From: a virus
Lineage: Duplodnaviria; Caudoviricetes
Length of the DNA: 59,229 nucleotides
IMG/VR virus record: IMGVR_UViG_3300043502_000004
Coordinates: 1-59,229 of that record
Reading direction: 5' to 3' (one strand)
Below are positions 2,886 through 33,495 of this stretch, one piece after another. Each line of letters starts with the position of its first letter. Position 1 is the first letter of the stretch. The position numbers and the translations under genes are program-made. Under the pieces are notes generated by a model. That model saw only the letters and a list, made by a program, of their open reading frames with translations, was not told where the DNA came from and made no database searches.

Positions 2886-3250
2886 CCGAGCCGGACAACC
2901 CGTTCGAGGGTCAGCCCATGTGGAACGGGGTGTTGCTCAGTCACTGGCGACTGTCCAAGTTCTACCTGAACAGCCTGTTTGACGGTCACCTGCACCTGGT
3001 GACCAGAGGACTTCACTTCCCACCCCTGGTCTCTGACGAGGCCATCATCAAGAAGCTGCGAAGTGCGGCCTGGTGGCGCAAGACCACCCTGCACATCGTC
3101 CCCTGCCCCCAGGGTCTCTGGGTGCAGTCACCCAGCAACCAACTCGGCCTGGATGGCACCCCGGAACTCCGGGAGGCCCTGGCGCAAGCTCTGGCGGAGG
3201 TCGCCAGTTTGAAGGAGGAACTATGGAAACTGAAGACGTCGTCACCGTGA
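2882..3250 (+). CDS. hypothetical protein
   Basis: SD GGAGG, GTGA overlap. Confidence 0.6.
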   Translation: MTEPDNPFEGQPMWNGVLLSHWRLSKFYLNSLFDGHLHLVTRGLHFPPLVSDEAIIKKLRSAAWWRKTTLHIVPCPQGLWVQSPSNQLGLDGTPELREALAQALAEVASLKEELWKLKTSSP

Positions 3251-4639: not shown

Positions 4640-4948
4640 GTGAAGCAACTCCCGTTAGATCAGCCCACGTACCTGCGGGTGCAGTGGCTCATCCACCAGG
4701 CTCATGTCCTTGGCATCGACCAGGTGGAGCACCTGCACGAGGCTGGGTTGATCGTGACCCCGGCCATGGAGCTGGGCCTGCGAATCAAGGGGATGACCTT
4801 CCTACTGGAAGAGATCAAAGGCTGGCGTCCAGCCGAGTTCATCCGGCGTACGGACAAGTCCGGCTCCGGCTCCACGCCCGCGGATCTGCACCTGCGGATC
4901 TGTGAGTTCATTCAAGATCATATCGATGCGATGAAAGCTGGAGGGTAA
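4640..4948 (+). CDS. hypothetical protein
   Basis: ORF directly after the tRNA; TAATG coupling to next gene. Confidence 0.65.
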   Translation: MKQLPLDQPTYLRVQWLIHQAHVLGIDQVEHLHEAGLIVTPAMELGLRIKGMTFLLEEIKGWRPAEFIRRTDKSGSGSTPADLHLRICEFIQDHIDAMKAGG

Positions 4949-11969: not shown

Positions 11970-12168
11970 TACATGCGAAAAGTGGCTGTACACGGACAAG
12001 GCTCGGGCCAAGAGGGTGGGGCGTCGGCACCACCCCCGGAAGCCGGCCTACATCTGCCCGGAGACCAGGGGGACAGTGCAGGAGCTGTACCACGTGGGTT
12101 CACTACCCCAGTTGGTAGTTCAGGGGTTCCTGACCCGCGACCAGCTTCGCCGCAAGCGCCGCTCCTGA
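11932..12168 (+). CDS. small zinc-binding protein
   Basis: CSTCEK..Y...KA ... AYICP...YH. Confidence 0.6.
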   Translation: MNKTDTDPIGWCSTCEKWLYTDKARAKRVGRRHHPRKPAYICPETRGTVQELYHVGSLPQLVVQGFLTRDQLRRKRRS

Positions 12169-12521
12169 GGTGCAACAACTGTGGGATCCTCGGGCACCTG
12201 CCGCGGGCCTGCCCCAACTACGGGTGGTACTACCCGGCGCCTGGGAAGAACCGCCTGGACTACGAAAAGGACAGGCAGCGGGTCCAGGACCTGATCGCCT
12301 CCGACATCATCTCCGAGCACGAGGTGCATGAGGATGACGAGGATCCCATCGTGTTTCAGGGTGCCCGACCTAGTGCGGACCGCAAGACCAAGGCCCTGAT
12401 GCTGCCCTGTCCGCGCTGTGAGCAGCCGCCGGGGAGCAAGTGCAAGACGGCAGCCGGGGACTACACGGAGCTGCACAAGGCACGGCTCGACGCTGTTGAC
12501 TCCCCGTCCCCGGGGAGCTAG
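12165..12521 (+). CDS. zinc-knuckle plus zinc-finger protein (start uncertain)
   Basis: CNNCGILGHLPRAC (CCHC) and CPRC...C...H. Confidence 0.6.
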   Translation: MRCNNCGILGHLPRACPNYGWYYPAPGKNRLDYEKDRQRVQDLIASDIISEHEVHEDDEDPIVFQGARPSADRKTKALMLPCPRCEQPPGSKCKTAAGDYTELHKARLDAVDSPSPGS

Positions 12522-12524
12522 GCT
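12496..12524 (+). promoter_or_regulatory. promoter with CCCCGGGG in spacer, upstream of the RNA cluster
   Basis: TTGACT-17 nt-TAGGCT. Confidence 0.8.
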
Positions 12525-12599
12525 GTAGCTACCTCGGGTTTGAGAAGGCTGGAGGAAGGCTCCCCCAGGGGCTGGTCACACAAAACCTGGGGGAGTCAC

Positions 12600-12750
12600 G
12601 GACTGGTAGCTCAACAGGTAGAGCAGACTGACCAACGCCCGCAGGACCGTGGTTCTAGAGCCACAGGGGCGCTGAGACTGGCACAGATATCGGTGACCAG
12701 GAAGGCGGCGTTGAATCGGTTGGTTGCAGGTTCGAATCCTGCTCAGCCCA
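12600..12750 (+). ncRNA. tRNA-like RNA with 84-nt structured domain replacing the anticodon loop
   Basis: Acceptor GGACTGG/TCAGCCC, D arm GCTC-AACAGGTA-GAGC, stem GACTGA/TCGGTT, T arm GCAGG-TTCGAAT-CCTGC; insert 12632-12715. Confidence 0.8.
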
Positions 12751-12852
12751 CGAGGGACCTACGACCAGCGACGACCGACAAGTGTTGTTGGCTAGTGAAC
12801 TCATGAGTGCCAGAACCAGGAGCTTCCCCCGTCGTCTCCTGGTTCTGGCCGG

Positions 12853-12924
12853 TGCGGGATCGTCTAACAGAAGGACGCTGTGCTCATAACTCAGAGAATC
12901 CGGGTGCGAATCCCGGTCCCGCCT
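12853..12924 (+). tRNA. tRNA with CAU anticodon (Met/fMet or Ile2), atypical
   Basis: GCGGGA/TCCCGC acceptor, CTGTG-CTCATAA-CTCAG, CCGGG-TGCGAAT-CCCGG. Confidence 0.75.
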
Positions 12925-12950
12925 CTACGTAAGACGCTCAGCGAATGAAT

Positions 12951-13020
12951 GGGTCGGTAGCTTAACGGGCAGAGTCCGGCGTTTAGGCCGGGGATGTCGG
13001 TTCGAATCCGACACGATCCA
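12951..13020 (+). tRNA. tRNA-like gene with 6-nt anticodon loop GTTTAG (identity undetermined)
   Basis: GGGTCG/CGATCC, GCTT/GAGT D stem, CCGGC-GTTTAG-GCCGG, GTCGG-TTCGAAT-CCGAC. Confidence 0.7.
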
Positions 13021-13055
13021 CGAGGCCGCGCGGCCGGACAATGAGAGGAGGCTCC

Positions 13056-13226
13056 ATGGAAACAGTGCGCTATCTGGTCACCGGGTTCCCGGGGGCCTTC
13101 AAGGAATGCCACCGCTGGCTGGTCAAGGTGACCTACGGGGTGTGGCCACTCATGCTGTGTCCCGGCCATCGGGCTTGGGCAGAGGTCCAGTACCTGCGAC
13201 AGTTGAGCGGTCCCGAGGGACGATGA
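13056..13226 (+). CDS. hypothetical protein
   Basis: SD GAGGAGG before ATG 13056. Confidence 0.45.
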   Translation: METVRYLVTGFPGAFKECHRWLVKVTYGVWPLMLCPGHRAWAEVQYLRQLSGPEGR

Positions 13227-13431
13227 TCTCGTTCTTCTGAAGGACCATGATCAGGTCATTCTGGTACTGGAGCATGTCGGTACGGTTCTGGTTGACGAGG
13301 GCATGTACTTCACCGAGGCCATCTTTCACCTTGGTGACGTCTCGTTTCAGAATCAGGACCACGGCAGTAGCAATAGACGTCACAAGGGTGGCGACGGCAC
13401 CAAGGATTAGGGCGATGCCCTCAGCAGTCAT
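13150..13431 (-). CDS. membrane protein, possible holin/lysis accessory
   Basis: N-terminal TM helix, then EVHALVN coiled region; leaderless start. Confidence 0.6.
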   Translation of the reverse strand: MTAEGIALILGAVATLVTSIATAVVLILKRDVTKVKDGLGEVHALVNQNRTDMLQYQNDLIMVLQKNEIIVPRDRSTVAGTGPLPKPDGRDTA

Positions 13432-13452
13432 GTCTCAAGAGTAAGGATCATC

Positions 13453-13602
13453 ATGGCTAATAACGATGCCGCAGCTCAAGAAGCACGTCGCAAGGCGGCC
13501 GAGGCTGAGCGAGCCGCCGACGAAGCAGTCAAAGAAGCTGAGCGTGCCGCTAAGCGCGCCGCCGACGCAGCAGAGGCTCGCCGCAAGTTGATGGGCCAGT
13601 AG
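13453..13602 (+). CDS. small Ala/Glu/Arg-rich helical protein (49 aa, not in ORF track)
   Basis: MANNDAAAQEARRKAAEAERAADEAVKEAERAAKRAADAAEARRKLMGQ; SD TAAGGA. Confidence 0.6.
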   Translation: MANNDAAAQEARRKAAEAERAADEAVKEAERAAKRAADAAEARRKLMGQ

Positions 13603-32652: not shown

Positions 32653-33495
32653 TTAGTCGCTGTTGCAGTCATGCGTCACCTGGATAGCCCAGGACCCGCA
32701 CTCGACGATGGTGACGAAGGTTCGCTCCGCCACCGTGTAGATCTGGTTGAGTGCCCGGTCCATCGTTTCGCCGATAGGTGGAACGAAGGTGTCCGAACCC
32801 CAGATCAAAACCCGGCCCGAGGCGTACATGTATTCCGTCGTCGCAGTGGTGGCCTGACCCGCCGGGCCAGTGCCGTTGTAGCCGTGACCCAGGACCACCG
32901 GGGTCCCGTTACGGGTGACGATCTGGCGACCTGGACCCTTTTCAATCAGGTGCGCCTGAGCCAGGACCGCACCCATTCCGGGCCGGGCGTGGATGATGCC
33001 ACCCACAACCCCGTTGTCGGCCAGGGCCTGCTCCAGGCTGAACACAGCCTCCGTGATGCAGGAGGCCGCCGACAGGGTGGCGGCGCTCTGGAAGTGGCCA
33101 GGAATGCCTCCTGTGCCACCGCCGGGTGCCCCCTGCCAGACCCGTCGCTCCACGCCCCGCTGCTCCCGCAGCTGCATCCGCAACCGGACTCGCTGCTCCA
33201 CCTCAGCGAAGCTGAAGCCGATGGAGCCACAGGTGTAGGAGGTGTAGACCCCGAACGGGGAGCCGGACACGGCTGGTTCAATCGCCGAGAACGTCTTGGA
33301 GCCAGAGACCGGGGGGCAGTTCATGGCGTACAGGAACACGTCGTCTTCACACGTGTCCGGCACGTACTGAATGCCACCCCCGTAGACCGGTCCGGGGAAC
33401 CCCATCGGCCCCAGAGCCACGTCGAAGAGCCCCGGCGGCCGGGGTGGCGGCGGCGGGGCCGGGATGAGTAGGGGCGCGTTAGCGATCGTGGGCAT
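32653..33495 (-). CDS. second capsid protein (pentamer-type)
   Basis: Directly after major capsid; PF.VY...C, E...VE...W, G..VV.G.GY. Confidence 0.7.
   Translation of the reverse strand: MPTIANAPLLIPAPPPPPRPPGLFDVALGPMGFPGPVYGGGIQYVPDTCEDDVFLYAMNCPPVSGSKTFSAIEPAVSGSPFGVYTSYTCGSIGFSFAEVEQRVRLRMQLREQRGVERRVWQGAPGGGTGGIPGHFQSAATLSAASCITEAVFSLEQALADNGVVGGIIHARPGMGAVLAQAHLIEKGPGRQIVTRNGTPVVLGHGYNGTGPAGQATTATTEYMYASGRVLIWGSDTFVPPIGETMDRALNQIYTVAERTFVTIVECGSWAIQVTHDCNSD

What the first reader, a model, noticed from the sequence alone, without database searches (positions are those of the whole stretch)
12600..12750. tRNA scaffold whose anticodon loop is replaced by an 84-nt structured domain
Seen: acceptor stem (one A-C mismatch), canonical D arm, anticodon stem GACTGA/TCGGTT and a perfect T arm. 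Between the anticodon-stem strands (12632-12715) lie a 7-bp helix CAACGCC/GGCGTTG and a junction with two hairpins (GTGGTT-CTAG-AGCCAC; CTGGCAC...GTGACCAG). It is the first RNA after a strong promoter. Known: group I introns are much longer, archaeal introns need a bulge-helix-bulge (absent here), and tmRNA lacks a D stem and has G3-U70 (absent here). Inference: a new anticodon-less tRNA-like RNA, such as a decoy for anticodon nucleases or tRNA sensors, an aptamer on a tRNA scaffold, or a mini-tmRNA. The insert reads GCA GGA CCG TGG TTC TAG with the stop in a hairpin loop, reminiscent of a tmRNA tag frame, but this may be chance.
Basis: partly seen in the sequence, partly recalled or inferred. 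Interest (0 to 1): 0.9.

Follow-up and report, generated by a model that had tools for sequence, protein, structure and literature searches.

The report
Anticodon-less tRNA-shaped phage RNA gene
An uncultured soil phage carries a gene shaped like a lysine tRNA whose codon-reading loop is buried under an 84-base folded insert, making it one more example of the poorly understood tRNA-shaped "stable RNAs" annotated in phage T5.

Summary
Window 12600-12750 matches the Rfam tRNA model end to end (37.4 bits, cut-off 29), with a long insertion where the anticodon loop should be. The same 151 nt occur without a single difference in contigs of three independent soil runs.

The body resembles actinobacterial tRNA-Lys(UUU). 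The insert matches no Rfam family. Nothing similar turned up in INPHARED, IMG/VR or 401 Actinomycetota genomes.

Three relatives carry an element at the same slot, including one with about 97% identical flanks. They keep only the acceptor stem and T arm, with compensatory changes, and have short unrelated hairpins in the middle. So the tRNA top half is selected and the insert is not conserved.

Best reading: a non-decoding tRNA-scaffold RNA of the same design as phage T5 RNA1 and RNA2, which are annotated "tRNA-like stable RNA with unknown functions". Its job is unknown. tmRNA, group I, archaeal-type intron and Y RNA memberships all fail.

This scan has noted the same design before on other DNA. 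I rate it a new member of a known but barely described kind. No expression data exist for the element.

The parts
12496..12524 (+). Promoter-like site TTGACT-N17-TAGGCT with a CCCCGGGG-type palindrome in the spacer
   Evidence: Read from the sequence. Both hexamers are kept in L002, L123, L124 and L125. The sigma-70 consensus scan did not report it, so its function is inferred.
12560..12595 (+). Leader hairpin: stem CTCCCCCAGG / CCTGGGGGAG, loop GGCTGGTCACACAAAA. It lies directly upstream of the element.
   Evidence: The loop GCTGGTCACACA is invariant in the window, L002, L123 and L125. The stem changes in step, CCCCCAGG/CCTGGGGG versus CCCTCAGG/CCTGAGGG. L124 lacks both this hairpin and the tRNA-like element.
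12600..12750 (+). The tRNA-shaped gene: acceptor stem 12600-12606 / 12743-12749, discriminator A at 12750
   Evidence: RF00005 37.4 bits, model positions 1-71. Identical in contigs of runs X3, X4 and X6.
12609..12624 (+). Canonical D arm GCTC-AACAGGTA-GAGC
   Evidence: Aligns with the D arms of actinobacterial tRNA-Lys, tRNA-Met and tRNA-Asn.
12626..12631 (+). 5' strand of the anticodon stem, GACTGA; pairs with 12716-12721
   Evidence: Folds.
12632..12715 (+). 84-nt domain: helix P1 12633-12639 / 12707-12713, hairpin P2 12647-12667 (loop CTAG), hairpin P3 12678-12700 (loop AGATATCG)
   Evidence: Folds. No Rfam family at E<=10. Its 3' end (GGCGTTGAA) aligns with the anticodon stem and loop of tRNA-Lys.
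12716..12742 (+). 3' strand of the anticodon stem TCGGTT, variable loop, and T arm GCAGG-TTCGAAT-CCTGC
   Evidence: TGGTTGCAGGTTCGA(A/G)TCCTGC is shared with six aligned actinobacterial tRNA genes, differing only at the A/G position in three of them. The T stem is 5 of 5 paired.
12810..12848 (+). Hairpin CCAGAACCAGGAG / CTCCTGGTTCTGG between the element and tRNA-Met (same transcription unit, context only)
   Evidence: Read. Kept with stem changes in L123 and L124.
12853..12925 (+). tRNA-Met (CAT), second gene of the cluster
12951..13021 (+). Third tRNA-like gene, with a 6-nt anticodon loop
   Evidence: Nearly identical in L002.

Best explanation
The gene encodes a non-decoding, tRNA-shaped RNA. 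It has an intact L-shaped body derived from an actinobacterial tRNA-Lys-type gene. The former anticodon loop is paired into a 7-bp helix that extends the anticodon stem and carries a two-hairpin domain.

Inferred mechanism:
- It is transcribed as the first RNA of a three-gene tRNA cluster.
- The ordinary tRNA enzymes cut it out: RNase P at 12599/12600, then 3' trimming after A12750 and CCA addition, because no CCA is encoded.
- It then accumulates as a stable RNA of about 151-154 nt. The tRNA top half acts as a processing and stability handle.
- The middle is an exchangeable cargo that differs between sister phages.

This is the natural counterpart of the engineered 'tRNA scaffold'. It has the same design as phage T5 RNA1 and RNA2. 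What the cargo does is unknown. I rate a specific cargo function (decoy or binding site) as less likely than a function that rests in the top half alone.
For: Shown:
- The tRNA model matches in full, with the insertion confined to the anticodon arm.
- All the nucleotides needed for the tertiary fold are present: U8, A14, A15 with U48, G18, G19, and T loop TTCGAAT.
- The 3' 40 nt are 83-93% identical to host-type tRNA genes in 74 of 401 Actinomycetota genomes. Of the 8 best loci fetched, 4 are tRNA-Lys(UUU), 2 Met, 1 Arg and 1 Asn.
- In the alignment, the window's CGTTGAA lies on the Lys loop CTTTTAA.
- Among the four alleles at this slot, the acceptor stem is paired at 23 of 27 positions and the T stem at 17 of 20. 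Controls slid by 1-3 nt reach at most 4 pairs. Pair 4:69 takes four different Watson-Crick forms. Pairs 2:71, 3:70, 50:64 and 51:63 change on both sides.
- The middle parts of those alleles are unrelated, although the window and L002 flanks are about 97% identical.
- T5 RNA1 (144 nt) and RNA2 (125 nt) sit in the T5 tRNA cluster and are annotated as tRNA-like stable RNAs. They fold as acceptor stem, D-like arm, long arm and T arm.
- Passages of PMC3753655 say that a tRNA acceptor stem with T and D arms, carrying an insert in the anticodon stem-loop, is recognised and precisely processed by cell enzymes and is protected from decay.

Inferred: transcription, processing, stability and CCA addition.
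Against: - There is no RNA evidence for the element. The one RNA-library run laid (X14) gave a contig over 12870-13020 only, and DNA carry-over cannot be excluded.
- The insert has no homolog, so its structure cannot be tested by covariation. Its folding z-score is modest at -2.4.
- Only four alleles support the covariation, and I set the element boundaries by eye from the flanks.
- The sister alleles lack the D arm, so they are top-half minihelices rather than full scaffolds.
- Likeness to T5 RNA1 and RNA2 is in layout only. No sequence match to T5 was found, and Rfam's tRNA model does not reach E<=0.05 on them.
- A recently disrupted tRNA gene would look the same in a single genome.
Confidence: 0.55

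Rival explanations
1. It is a tRNA-Lys-type gene disabled by an insertion, that is, a decaying pseudogene. The sister phages show later stages of the same decay, in the form of internal deletions. Any conservation of the top half reflects youth, or a mere role as an RNase P/Z cutting site in the operon transcript.
For: - The insert is unique: there is no second copy and no homolog.
- The slot is dispensable, because L124 has the promoter and tRNA-Met but no element.
- Sister alleles lack the D and anticodon arms.
- The whole-element fold is no better than shuffles.
- The former loop carries U33->G and U36->G relative to tRNA-Lys.
Against: - Acceptor and T stems stay paired through compensatory changes in four diverged alleles. 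Neutral decay would not do that.
- The two ends of the insert form a perfect 7-bp helix stacked on the anticodon stem. This preserves the scaffold, which is not expected of a random insertion.
- All tertiary-contact bases are intact.
Confidence: 0.22
2. It is an intron-containing tRNA. About 77-79 nt are removed by an unknown route and the exons form a decoding tRNA.
For: - ARAGORN in intron mode calls a tRNA with a 79-nt intron (12631-12709) and loop GTTGAAT, anticodon TGA.
- When I deleted candidate introns in a script, ARAGORN called tRNAs for all 5 variants: 2 with TGA, 2 with TTG and 1 undetermined.
- Unexplained 'introns' in phage tRNAs are reported for Lak megaphages (passages of 10.1101/356790).
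- This scan has noted tRNA-shaped mini-introns in other phages.
Against: - The boundaries are ambiguous, and each product is flawed. One is a short-variable-loop body with a Ser anticodon. From general knowledge, bacterial SerRS needs the long variable arm. The other has G at position 33.
- The position, 31/32, is non-canonical.
- There is no group I match, no bulge-helix-bulge, and no minihelix ending in CCA inside the insert.
- No RNA ligase or tRNA enzyme was found among the 28 window proteins scanned against Pfam.
- Sister alleles have no anticodon arm at all, yet keep the top half.
Confidence: 0.08
3. It is a tRNA-ordered Y-like RNA. The extended arm with its internal loop (C opposite AA) would dock the host's Ro60/Rsr protein.
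For: - Earlier notes of this scan describe tRNA-shaped Y RNAs with a Ro-binding helix in the anticodon arm. Those stretches share 4 of 65 short words with this element.
- The 3' strand reads GTTGAATCG, one mismatch and one extra base away from the motif GNCGAAN0-1G given in PMC4201824 (passages).
- A distant relative contig, L127, has a YrlA-like hit of 32 bits.
Against: - The motif is not met exactly.
- Rfam YrlA gives no hit on the element at E<=10.
- No TROVE/Ro60 gene is present in the 94%-complete phage record.
- The L127 hit is below the cut-off of 69 bits.
- Sister alleles lack the arm.
Confidence: 0.05
4. It is a mini-tmRNA. The tRNA-like domain would be charged, and the frame GCA GGA CCG TGG TTC TAG would serve as a tag.
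For: The frame begins with GCA and ends in a hairpin loop.
Against: - ARAGORN, which also searches for tmRNA, finds none here.
- No tmRNA family appears at E<=10.
- Pair 3:70 is A-C, not G-U.
- The D stem is full.
- The frame is absent from L002, L123 and L125.
Confidence: 0.01

Closest known systems
Phage T5 RNA1 (AY543070 30501-30644) and RNA2 (32959-33083), annotated 'tRNA-like stable RNA with unknown functions'
   Same: - They lie inside a phage tRNA gene cluster.
- They have an acceptor stem, a D-type arm and a T arm, with a long folded arm where the anticodon arm should be.
- They are 125-144 nt long, against 151 nt here.
- Their function is unknown.
   Different: - No sequence similarity was found.
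- The T5 RNAs do not reach E<=0.05 with Rfam's tRNA model, whereas this element scores 37.4 bits.
- The T5 RNA1 fold shows a long variable arm. This body has a short variable loop and is Lys-like.
- The word 'stable' for the T5 RNAs comes from the record's annotation, not from any test here.
Engineered 'tRNA scaffold' for recombinant RNA (Ponchon and Dardel approach; PMC3753655, passages read)
   Same: [quoted passage not shown] A tRNA-Lys body is used. The paper states that such chimeras are recognised, precisely processed and protected from decay.
   Different: That scaffold is man-made and uses human tRNA-Lys3 in E. coli. This element is natural, sits in a high-GC phage, and has a cargo of unknown role.
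'Enigmatic' introns of Lak megaphage tRNAs (10.1101/356790, passages read)
   Same: These are phage tRNA genes much longer than normal because of an insert in the anticodon region. No splicing mechanism is known for them.
   Different: The Lak inserts were found identical across cohorts in the same tRNA, and the exons give assignable isotypes. Here the insert is not shared by relatives and the exon products are flawed. The paper's Table S6, which holds the intron sequences, was not seen.
YrlA / bacterial Y RNAs (RF02553; PMC4201824, passages read)
   Same: They are non-decoding RNAs that mimic tRNA. The paper reports that M. smegmatis YrlA is cleaved by RNase P and receives CCA, and that YrlA RNAs also occur in phages.
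   Different: YrlA has a permuted order, with its ends in the Ro-binding stem and a closed acceptor. It has the motif GNCGAAN0-1G and a neighbouring Ro60 gene. None of these features is found here.
tmRNA
   Same: A tRNA-like acceptor and T domain joined to a long helix in place of the anticodon arm.
   Different: This element has a full D stem, no G3-U70, no pseudoknots and no detectable tag frame. No ARAGORN or Rfam hit.

Membership tests
tRNA (Rfam RF00005) | Cloverleaf with acceptor, D and T arms, scoring above the curated cut-off | tested here: met
   37.4 bits against a cut-off of 29, model positions 1-71.
tRNA (Rfam RF00005) | A 7-nt anticodon loop with U33 presented on a 5-bp stem | tested here: not met
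   93 nt are inserted between model positions 27 and 43. In the fold, the former loop bases are paired in helix P1. Default ARAGORN does not call the gene.
T5-type tRNA-like stable RNA (RNA1/RNA2) | A tRNA-like acceptor and T (and D) frame with a long structured arm replacing the anticodon loop, located in a phage tRNA cluster | tested here: met
   Layout compared by folding T5 RNA1 and RNA2 and this element. The cluster context is shown.
T5-type tRNA-like stable RNA (RNA1/RNA2) | Accumulates as a discrete stable RNA in infected cells | not testable with these tools
   The only RNA-library run laid gave no cover of 12600-12721.
T5-type tRNA-like stable RNA (RNA1/RNA2) | Sequence homology to the T5 RNAs | tested here: not met
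   A blastn search of the phage collection returned only T-arm matches to three other phages.
tmRNA | tRNA-like domain with G3-U70 and no D stem, plus tag frame and pseudoknots; detectable by ARAGORN or Rfam | tested here: not met
Group I intron in a tRNA anticodon loop | A P1-P9 catalytic core, usually longer than 200 nt (size recalled); Rfam RF00028 | tested here: not met
   The insert is 77-84 nt, and no group I match appears at E<=10.
Archaeal-type tRNA intron | Bulge-helix-bulge: two 3-nt bulges separated by 4 bp (definition recalled) | tested here: not met
   The fold shows a 1-nt bulge directly opposite a 2-nt bulge, between 6-bp and 7-bp helices.
YrlA / Y RNA | Rsr-binding motif GNCGAAN0-1G, a neighbouring Ro60 (TROVE) gene, and a match to RF02553 | tested here: not met
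   The motif is absent; the nearest stretch is GTTGAATCG (motif). No TROVE domain is found in the record. No RF02553 hit.
tRNA-shaped mini-intron (earlier notes of this scan) | The insert is itself an acceptor plus T-arm minihelix ending in CCA | tested here: not met
   The insert has no T-loop-like hairpin abutting its 3' strand and does not end in CCA.

The most novel reading that the evidence does not exclude
The tRNA top half is a universal maturation and stability handle. The exchangeable middle is a working cargo, for example a decoy or binding site for a host factor such as a tRNA-Lys-directed anticodon nuclease or another tRNA sensor. Sister phages with nearly identical flanks would then carry different cargos because the slot is an arms-race cassette. 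That would make this a natural, modular 'RNA display' system in phages.
Probability: 0.15. Interest if true: 0.8.

Novelty: new member of a known kind. Interest (0 to 1): 0.5.

Why it matters
Phage T5's record annotates tRNA-like stable RNAs whose function is still listed as unknown. Earlier notes of this scan suggest the same design is widespread in uncultured phages.

This locus adds three things:
- a case with a short-variable-loop, Lys-like body in a high-GC soil phage;
- sister alleles at the same slot reduced to the acceptor and T-arm top half, with compensatory changes, which points to the top half as the selected part;
- replacement of the middle between phages whose flanks are about 97% identical.

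The 151-nt RNA is small and self-contained, so it suits direct tests of processing, charging and protein binding. If the cargo proves functional, it would be a natural counterpart of the engineered tRNA scaffold.

Tried and rejected
**Searches for homologs of the insert or the whole element, all negative**
- Megablast of 12000-13600 against the phage collection found nothing.
- blastn of 12590-12760 found T-arm matches only, in 3 records.
- The IMG/VR pattern for the two junction strands of the insert gave 0 matches.
- blastn-short against the window and all loci held at that time gave only matches of up to 16 nt at E>=0.32.
- In 401 Actinomycetota genomes, 74 had a match. None of the listed matches covers query positions 55-103. 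Three rows (17-51, 19-54 and 7-33) touch the 5' part. I read only the 17-51 row and found it to be non-tRNA sequence.

**Searches for more relatives of the locus**
- The leader 21-mer and the leader-loop pattern in IMG/VR found only the L002 contig plus three unrelated matches.
- The same pattern in genome contigs gave 37 stretches. In none of them did my script find a T-loop-like motif within 200 nt downstream, so I treated them as chance.
- The pattern for the hairpin upstream of tRNA-Met found only the L002 contig.
- A protein-alignment scan of IMG/VR again found only that contig.

**General pattern, D arm ... 90-118 nt ... T arm, in IMG/VR**
My script found 123 matches in them.
- ARAGORN explained 100 of the 123 as two or more tRNAs and 16 as one. 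The remaining 7 had none, and these are 5 distinct sequences.
- Of the 5 loci behind those 7, Rfam gave long tRNA hits only in L029, at 153 nt and 105 nt. None resembles this insert.

**Other steps that led nowhere**
- The MAFFT alignment of the four slot alleles misplaced the window's T arm. I therefore counted pairs with a script anchored on the T loop, not with the count of structure pairs.
- RNA run X14 has no contig over 12600-12721. One of its contigs matches 12722-12756 with 5 differences and unlike flanks, so it is another organism's tRNA. This says nothing either way about expression.
- The promoter consensus scan found 0 sites.
- A coding reading is rejected. ORF 12540-12806 has a third-position GC of 0.61, against mostly 0.7-0.87 for the long genes, and the 97-nt length difference to L002 breaks the frame.
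- Mobile-element reading: the 7-bp terminal inverted repeat is the only point in its favour. There is no target duplication and no other copy.

**Papers**
Searches turned up no description of this RNA class beyond the items cited. I saw passages only of 10.1101/356790, PMC4201824, PMC10690425 and PMC3753655, and search listings only for the rest. Supplements were not opened. Table S6 of the Lak paper and the YrlA supplementary alignments could bear on the comparisons. The statements about SerRS needing a long variable arm, U33 being near-universal, LysRS reading the anticodon, and the sizes of group I introns are recalled, not tested.

Full report
**What the window is.** The window is a complete IMG/VR virus record of 59,229 bases, estimated 94% complete. 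Its large terminase is at most 37% identical to that of any cultured phage in the collection. The most numerous hits are to phages of Gordonia, Vibrio, Microbacterium and Arthrobacter. The same DNA occurs in soil and freshwater-sediment metagenomes. The host is unknown. The tRNA-like genes resemble actinobacterial tRNAs, which makes a high-GC Actinomycetota host likely but unproven.

**The observation.**
- Rfam's tRNA model aligns to 12600-12750 from model position 1 to 71 at 37.4 bits (cut-off 29). A 93-nt stretch is treated as an insertion between the first and last base pair of the anticodon stem.
- Default ARAGORN does not call the gene.
- The minimum-energy and centroid folds both contain the acceptor stem, the D arm, the 6-bp stem GACUGA/UCGGUU, the 7-bp helix CAACGCC/GGCGUUG, the two hairpins and the T arm.
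- The arm alone folds better than all but 3 of 200 shuffles (z = -2.4). The whole RNA does not (z = -1.0).
- U8, A14, A15 with U48, G18, G19, A21 and the TTCGAAT loop are all present, so the L-shaped core can form.
- The element is not an assembly error. A 7,867-nt contig of run X3, a 347-nt contig of X4 and a contig of X6 come from three different studies and cover it with no difference.

**What the body is.** I searched 401 Actinomycetota genomes with the 151 nt, and 74 gave a match. Apart from three rows, 17-51, 19-54 and 7-33, all listed matches lie within query positions 104-151. I read only the 17-51 row, and it is non-tRNA sequence.
- Of the eight best loci, the matched gene is tRNA-Lys(UUU) in four, tRNA-Met in two, tRNA-Arg in one and tRNA-Asn in one.
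- In the alignment the variable loop and T arm (TGGTTGCAGGTTCGA(A/G)TCCTGC) are shared with these genes, differing only at the A/G position in three of the six, and the D arm is very similar.
- The window's CGTTGAA lies on the Lys loop CTTTTAA.

So the 3' strand of helix P1 is the former anticodon loop, changed at positions 33 and 36 and now paired with CAACG on the 5' side. No anticodon loop is on display.

**What the insert is not.**
- A permissive Rfam search of 12560-12790 (E up to 10) returned only the tRNA match and four meaningless weak matches. No ribozyme, riboswitch, tmRNA, group I or YrlA family appeared.
- There is no second copy in the phage or in any locus held at that time.
- There is no match in the phage collection, in IMG/VR for its junction strands, or in the 401 genomes.
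- The internal loop between the two helices is 1 nt opposite 2 nt, not a bulge-helix-bulge.
- The record has no TROVE/Ro60 gene.
- I found no RNA ligase or tRNA enzyme among the 28 proteins I scanned against Pfam. That is not the whole proteome.

**Relatives, the key result.** The upstream gene (11973-12521) encodes a protein with a zinc knuckle and a phage zinc-finger domain. It has 29 relatives in the protein collection. Scans of IMG/VR and JGI metagenomes gave one close relative (L002, protein 87% identical) and eight metagenome loci.
- L002's flanks are about 97% identical to the window. Between them, however, lie only 54 nt: a 5-bp acceptor stem, a hairpin with a UGCA loop, and a T arm.
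- L123 (80 nt) and L125 (67 nt) are built the same way but have other hairpins.
- L124 has the promoter and tRNA-Met but lacks both the leader hairpin and the element.
- The five more distant loci (L126-L130) have a different arrangement.

Anchoring on the T loop and the conserved flanks, the acceptor stem is paired at 23 of 27 positions and the T stem at 17 of 20 across the four alleles. Sliding one strand by 1-3 nt gives at most 4 pairs in any allele. Pair 4:69 is C-G, T-A, G-C and A-T in the four alleles. Pairs 2:71, 3:70, 50:64 and 51:63 also change on both sides.

The top half is therefore under selection as RNA structure, while the middle is replaced wholesale. The same mosaic pattern holds for the neighbouring tRNA-Met: its body differs between the window and L002 although its flanks are identical. 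The third tRNA-like gene is nearly unchanged.

**Intron reading.** ARAGORN in intron mode proposes a 79-nt intron at position 31/32, giving loop GUUGAAU with anticodon UGA. I deleted five candidate intervals in a script. ARAGORN then called UGA twice, UUG twice and an undetermined anticodon once. The boundaries are therefore not defined, and each product is flawed: one is a Ser anticodon on a body with a 4-nt variable loop, the other has G at position 33. Together with the anticodon-less sister alleles, this makes splicing unlikely, though not impossible. Unexplained inserts in phage tRNAs have been reported for Lak megaphages.

**Closest known.** The GenBank record of phage T5 annotates RNA1 (144 nt) and RNA2 (125 nt), inside its tRNA cluster, as 'tRNA-like stable RNA with unknown functions'. 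Folded, both show an acceptor stem, a D-type hairpin, a long arm and a T arm. That is the same layout as here, without sequence similarity.

The engineered tRNA scaffold, an acceptor stem with T and D arms and an insert closing the anticodon stem, is stated to be recognised, precisely processed and protected in cells (passages of PMC3753655). This supports the inferred mechanism. M. smegmatis YrlA, another tRNA mimic, is reported to be cut by RNase P and to receive CCA (passages of PMC4201824).

Earlier notes of this scan describe many 'anticodon-less tRNA-shaped phage RNAs with swappable inserts' and point to T5. I took the T5 lead from them and checked it myself.

**Mechanism, with its status.**
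- Shown: the tRNA body, the buried loop, selection on the top half, and non-conservation of the middle.
- Inferred: transcription from the conserved TTGACT-N17-TAGGCT site, RNase P cleavage at 12599/12600, 3' trimming and CCA addition (the gene is followed by CGAG, not CCA), and accumulation as an RNA of about 151-154 nt that cannot decode and probably cannot be charged. The last point rests on my recollection that LysRS reads the anticodon.
- Function remains open. I put the scaffold or stable-RNA reading at 0.55, a disrupted pseudogene at 0.22, an intron at 0.08, a Y-like RNA at 0.05 and tmRNA at 0.01. The rest is left unassigned.

**Verdict.** The finding is real and well observed, but it is not a new class and not a tmRNA. 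It is a new member of a barely described kind. Its added value is a slot in which sister phages keep only the tRNA top half.

Noticed in passing
window 12560-12595; L002 4589-4624; L123 ~862-897; L125 ~1075-1110: A leader hairpin lies directly upstream of the tRNA-like element. Its loop GCTGGTCACACA is invariant and its stem changes in step. It is gained or lost together with the element, since both are absent in L124. It could be a protein site or a separate small RNA released by RNase P.
   Followed up: partly
window 12810-12848; L123 ~1066-1103; L124 ~3124-3162: A 13-bp hairpin sits just upstream of tRNA-Met. Its loop CTTCCCCCGTCGT is conserved and its stem varies between relatives.
   Followed up: no
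window 12853-12925 versus L002 4785-4856: The tRNA-Met body differs strongly between the two phages although the flanks are identical. L002 also has about 40 extra spacer bases after it. tRNA bodies seem to be exchanged as cassettes.
   Followed up: partly
L127 1242-1295, 1297-1369, 1671-1739: A distant relative contig holds three odd RNAs: a top-half minihelix; a clean cloverleaf whose anticodon loop is a GCAA tetraloop (z = -2.8); and a permuted tRNA-like stretch that hits Rfam YrlA at 32 bits, below the cut-off of 69.
   Followed up: partly
L029 1128-1232 and 1356-1508: An unrelated 130-kb IMG/VR contig has two over-long matches to the tRNA model, 105 nt and 153 nt (41.8 and 46.5 bits). The 153-nt one has an ordinary anticodon arm and a very long region before the T arm.
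   Followed up: no
window 12653-12658 and 12686-12691; L123 ~928-933; L002 ~4646-4651: The hairpin tips of the variable middles contain 6-base palindromes: TCTAGA and GATATC here, GCTAGC in L123 and GTGCAC in L002. They could allow loop-loop pairing of two RNAs, or they could be coincidence.
   Followed up: no
window 11973-12521: The gene just upstream encodes a protein with a CCHC zinc knuckle and a phage zinc-finger domain. It keeps this position next to the tRNA cluster in L002, L123, L124 and L125.
   Followed up: no
window 12870-13020: A 151-nt contig of a soil metatranscriptome library matches this stretch (3' part of tRNA-Met through the third tRNA-like gene) with no difference. DNA carry-over cannot be excluded.
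   Followed up: no
window 12749-12754, 13019-13024; L002, L123-L126, L128: The 3' end of many tRNA and tRNA-like genes in this phage group runs into the hexamer CACGAG. In L123 and L125 the same hexamer also stands at the start of the leader-plus-element module, so it may be a processing or recombination signal. Window-wide it is not over-represented: 21 and 15 copies on the two strands against about 19 expected per strand.
   Followed up: partly
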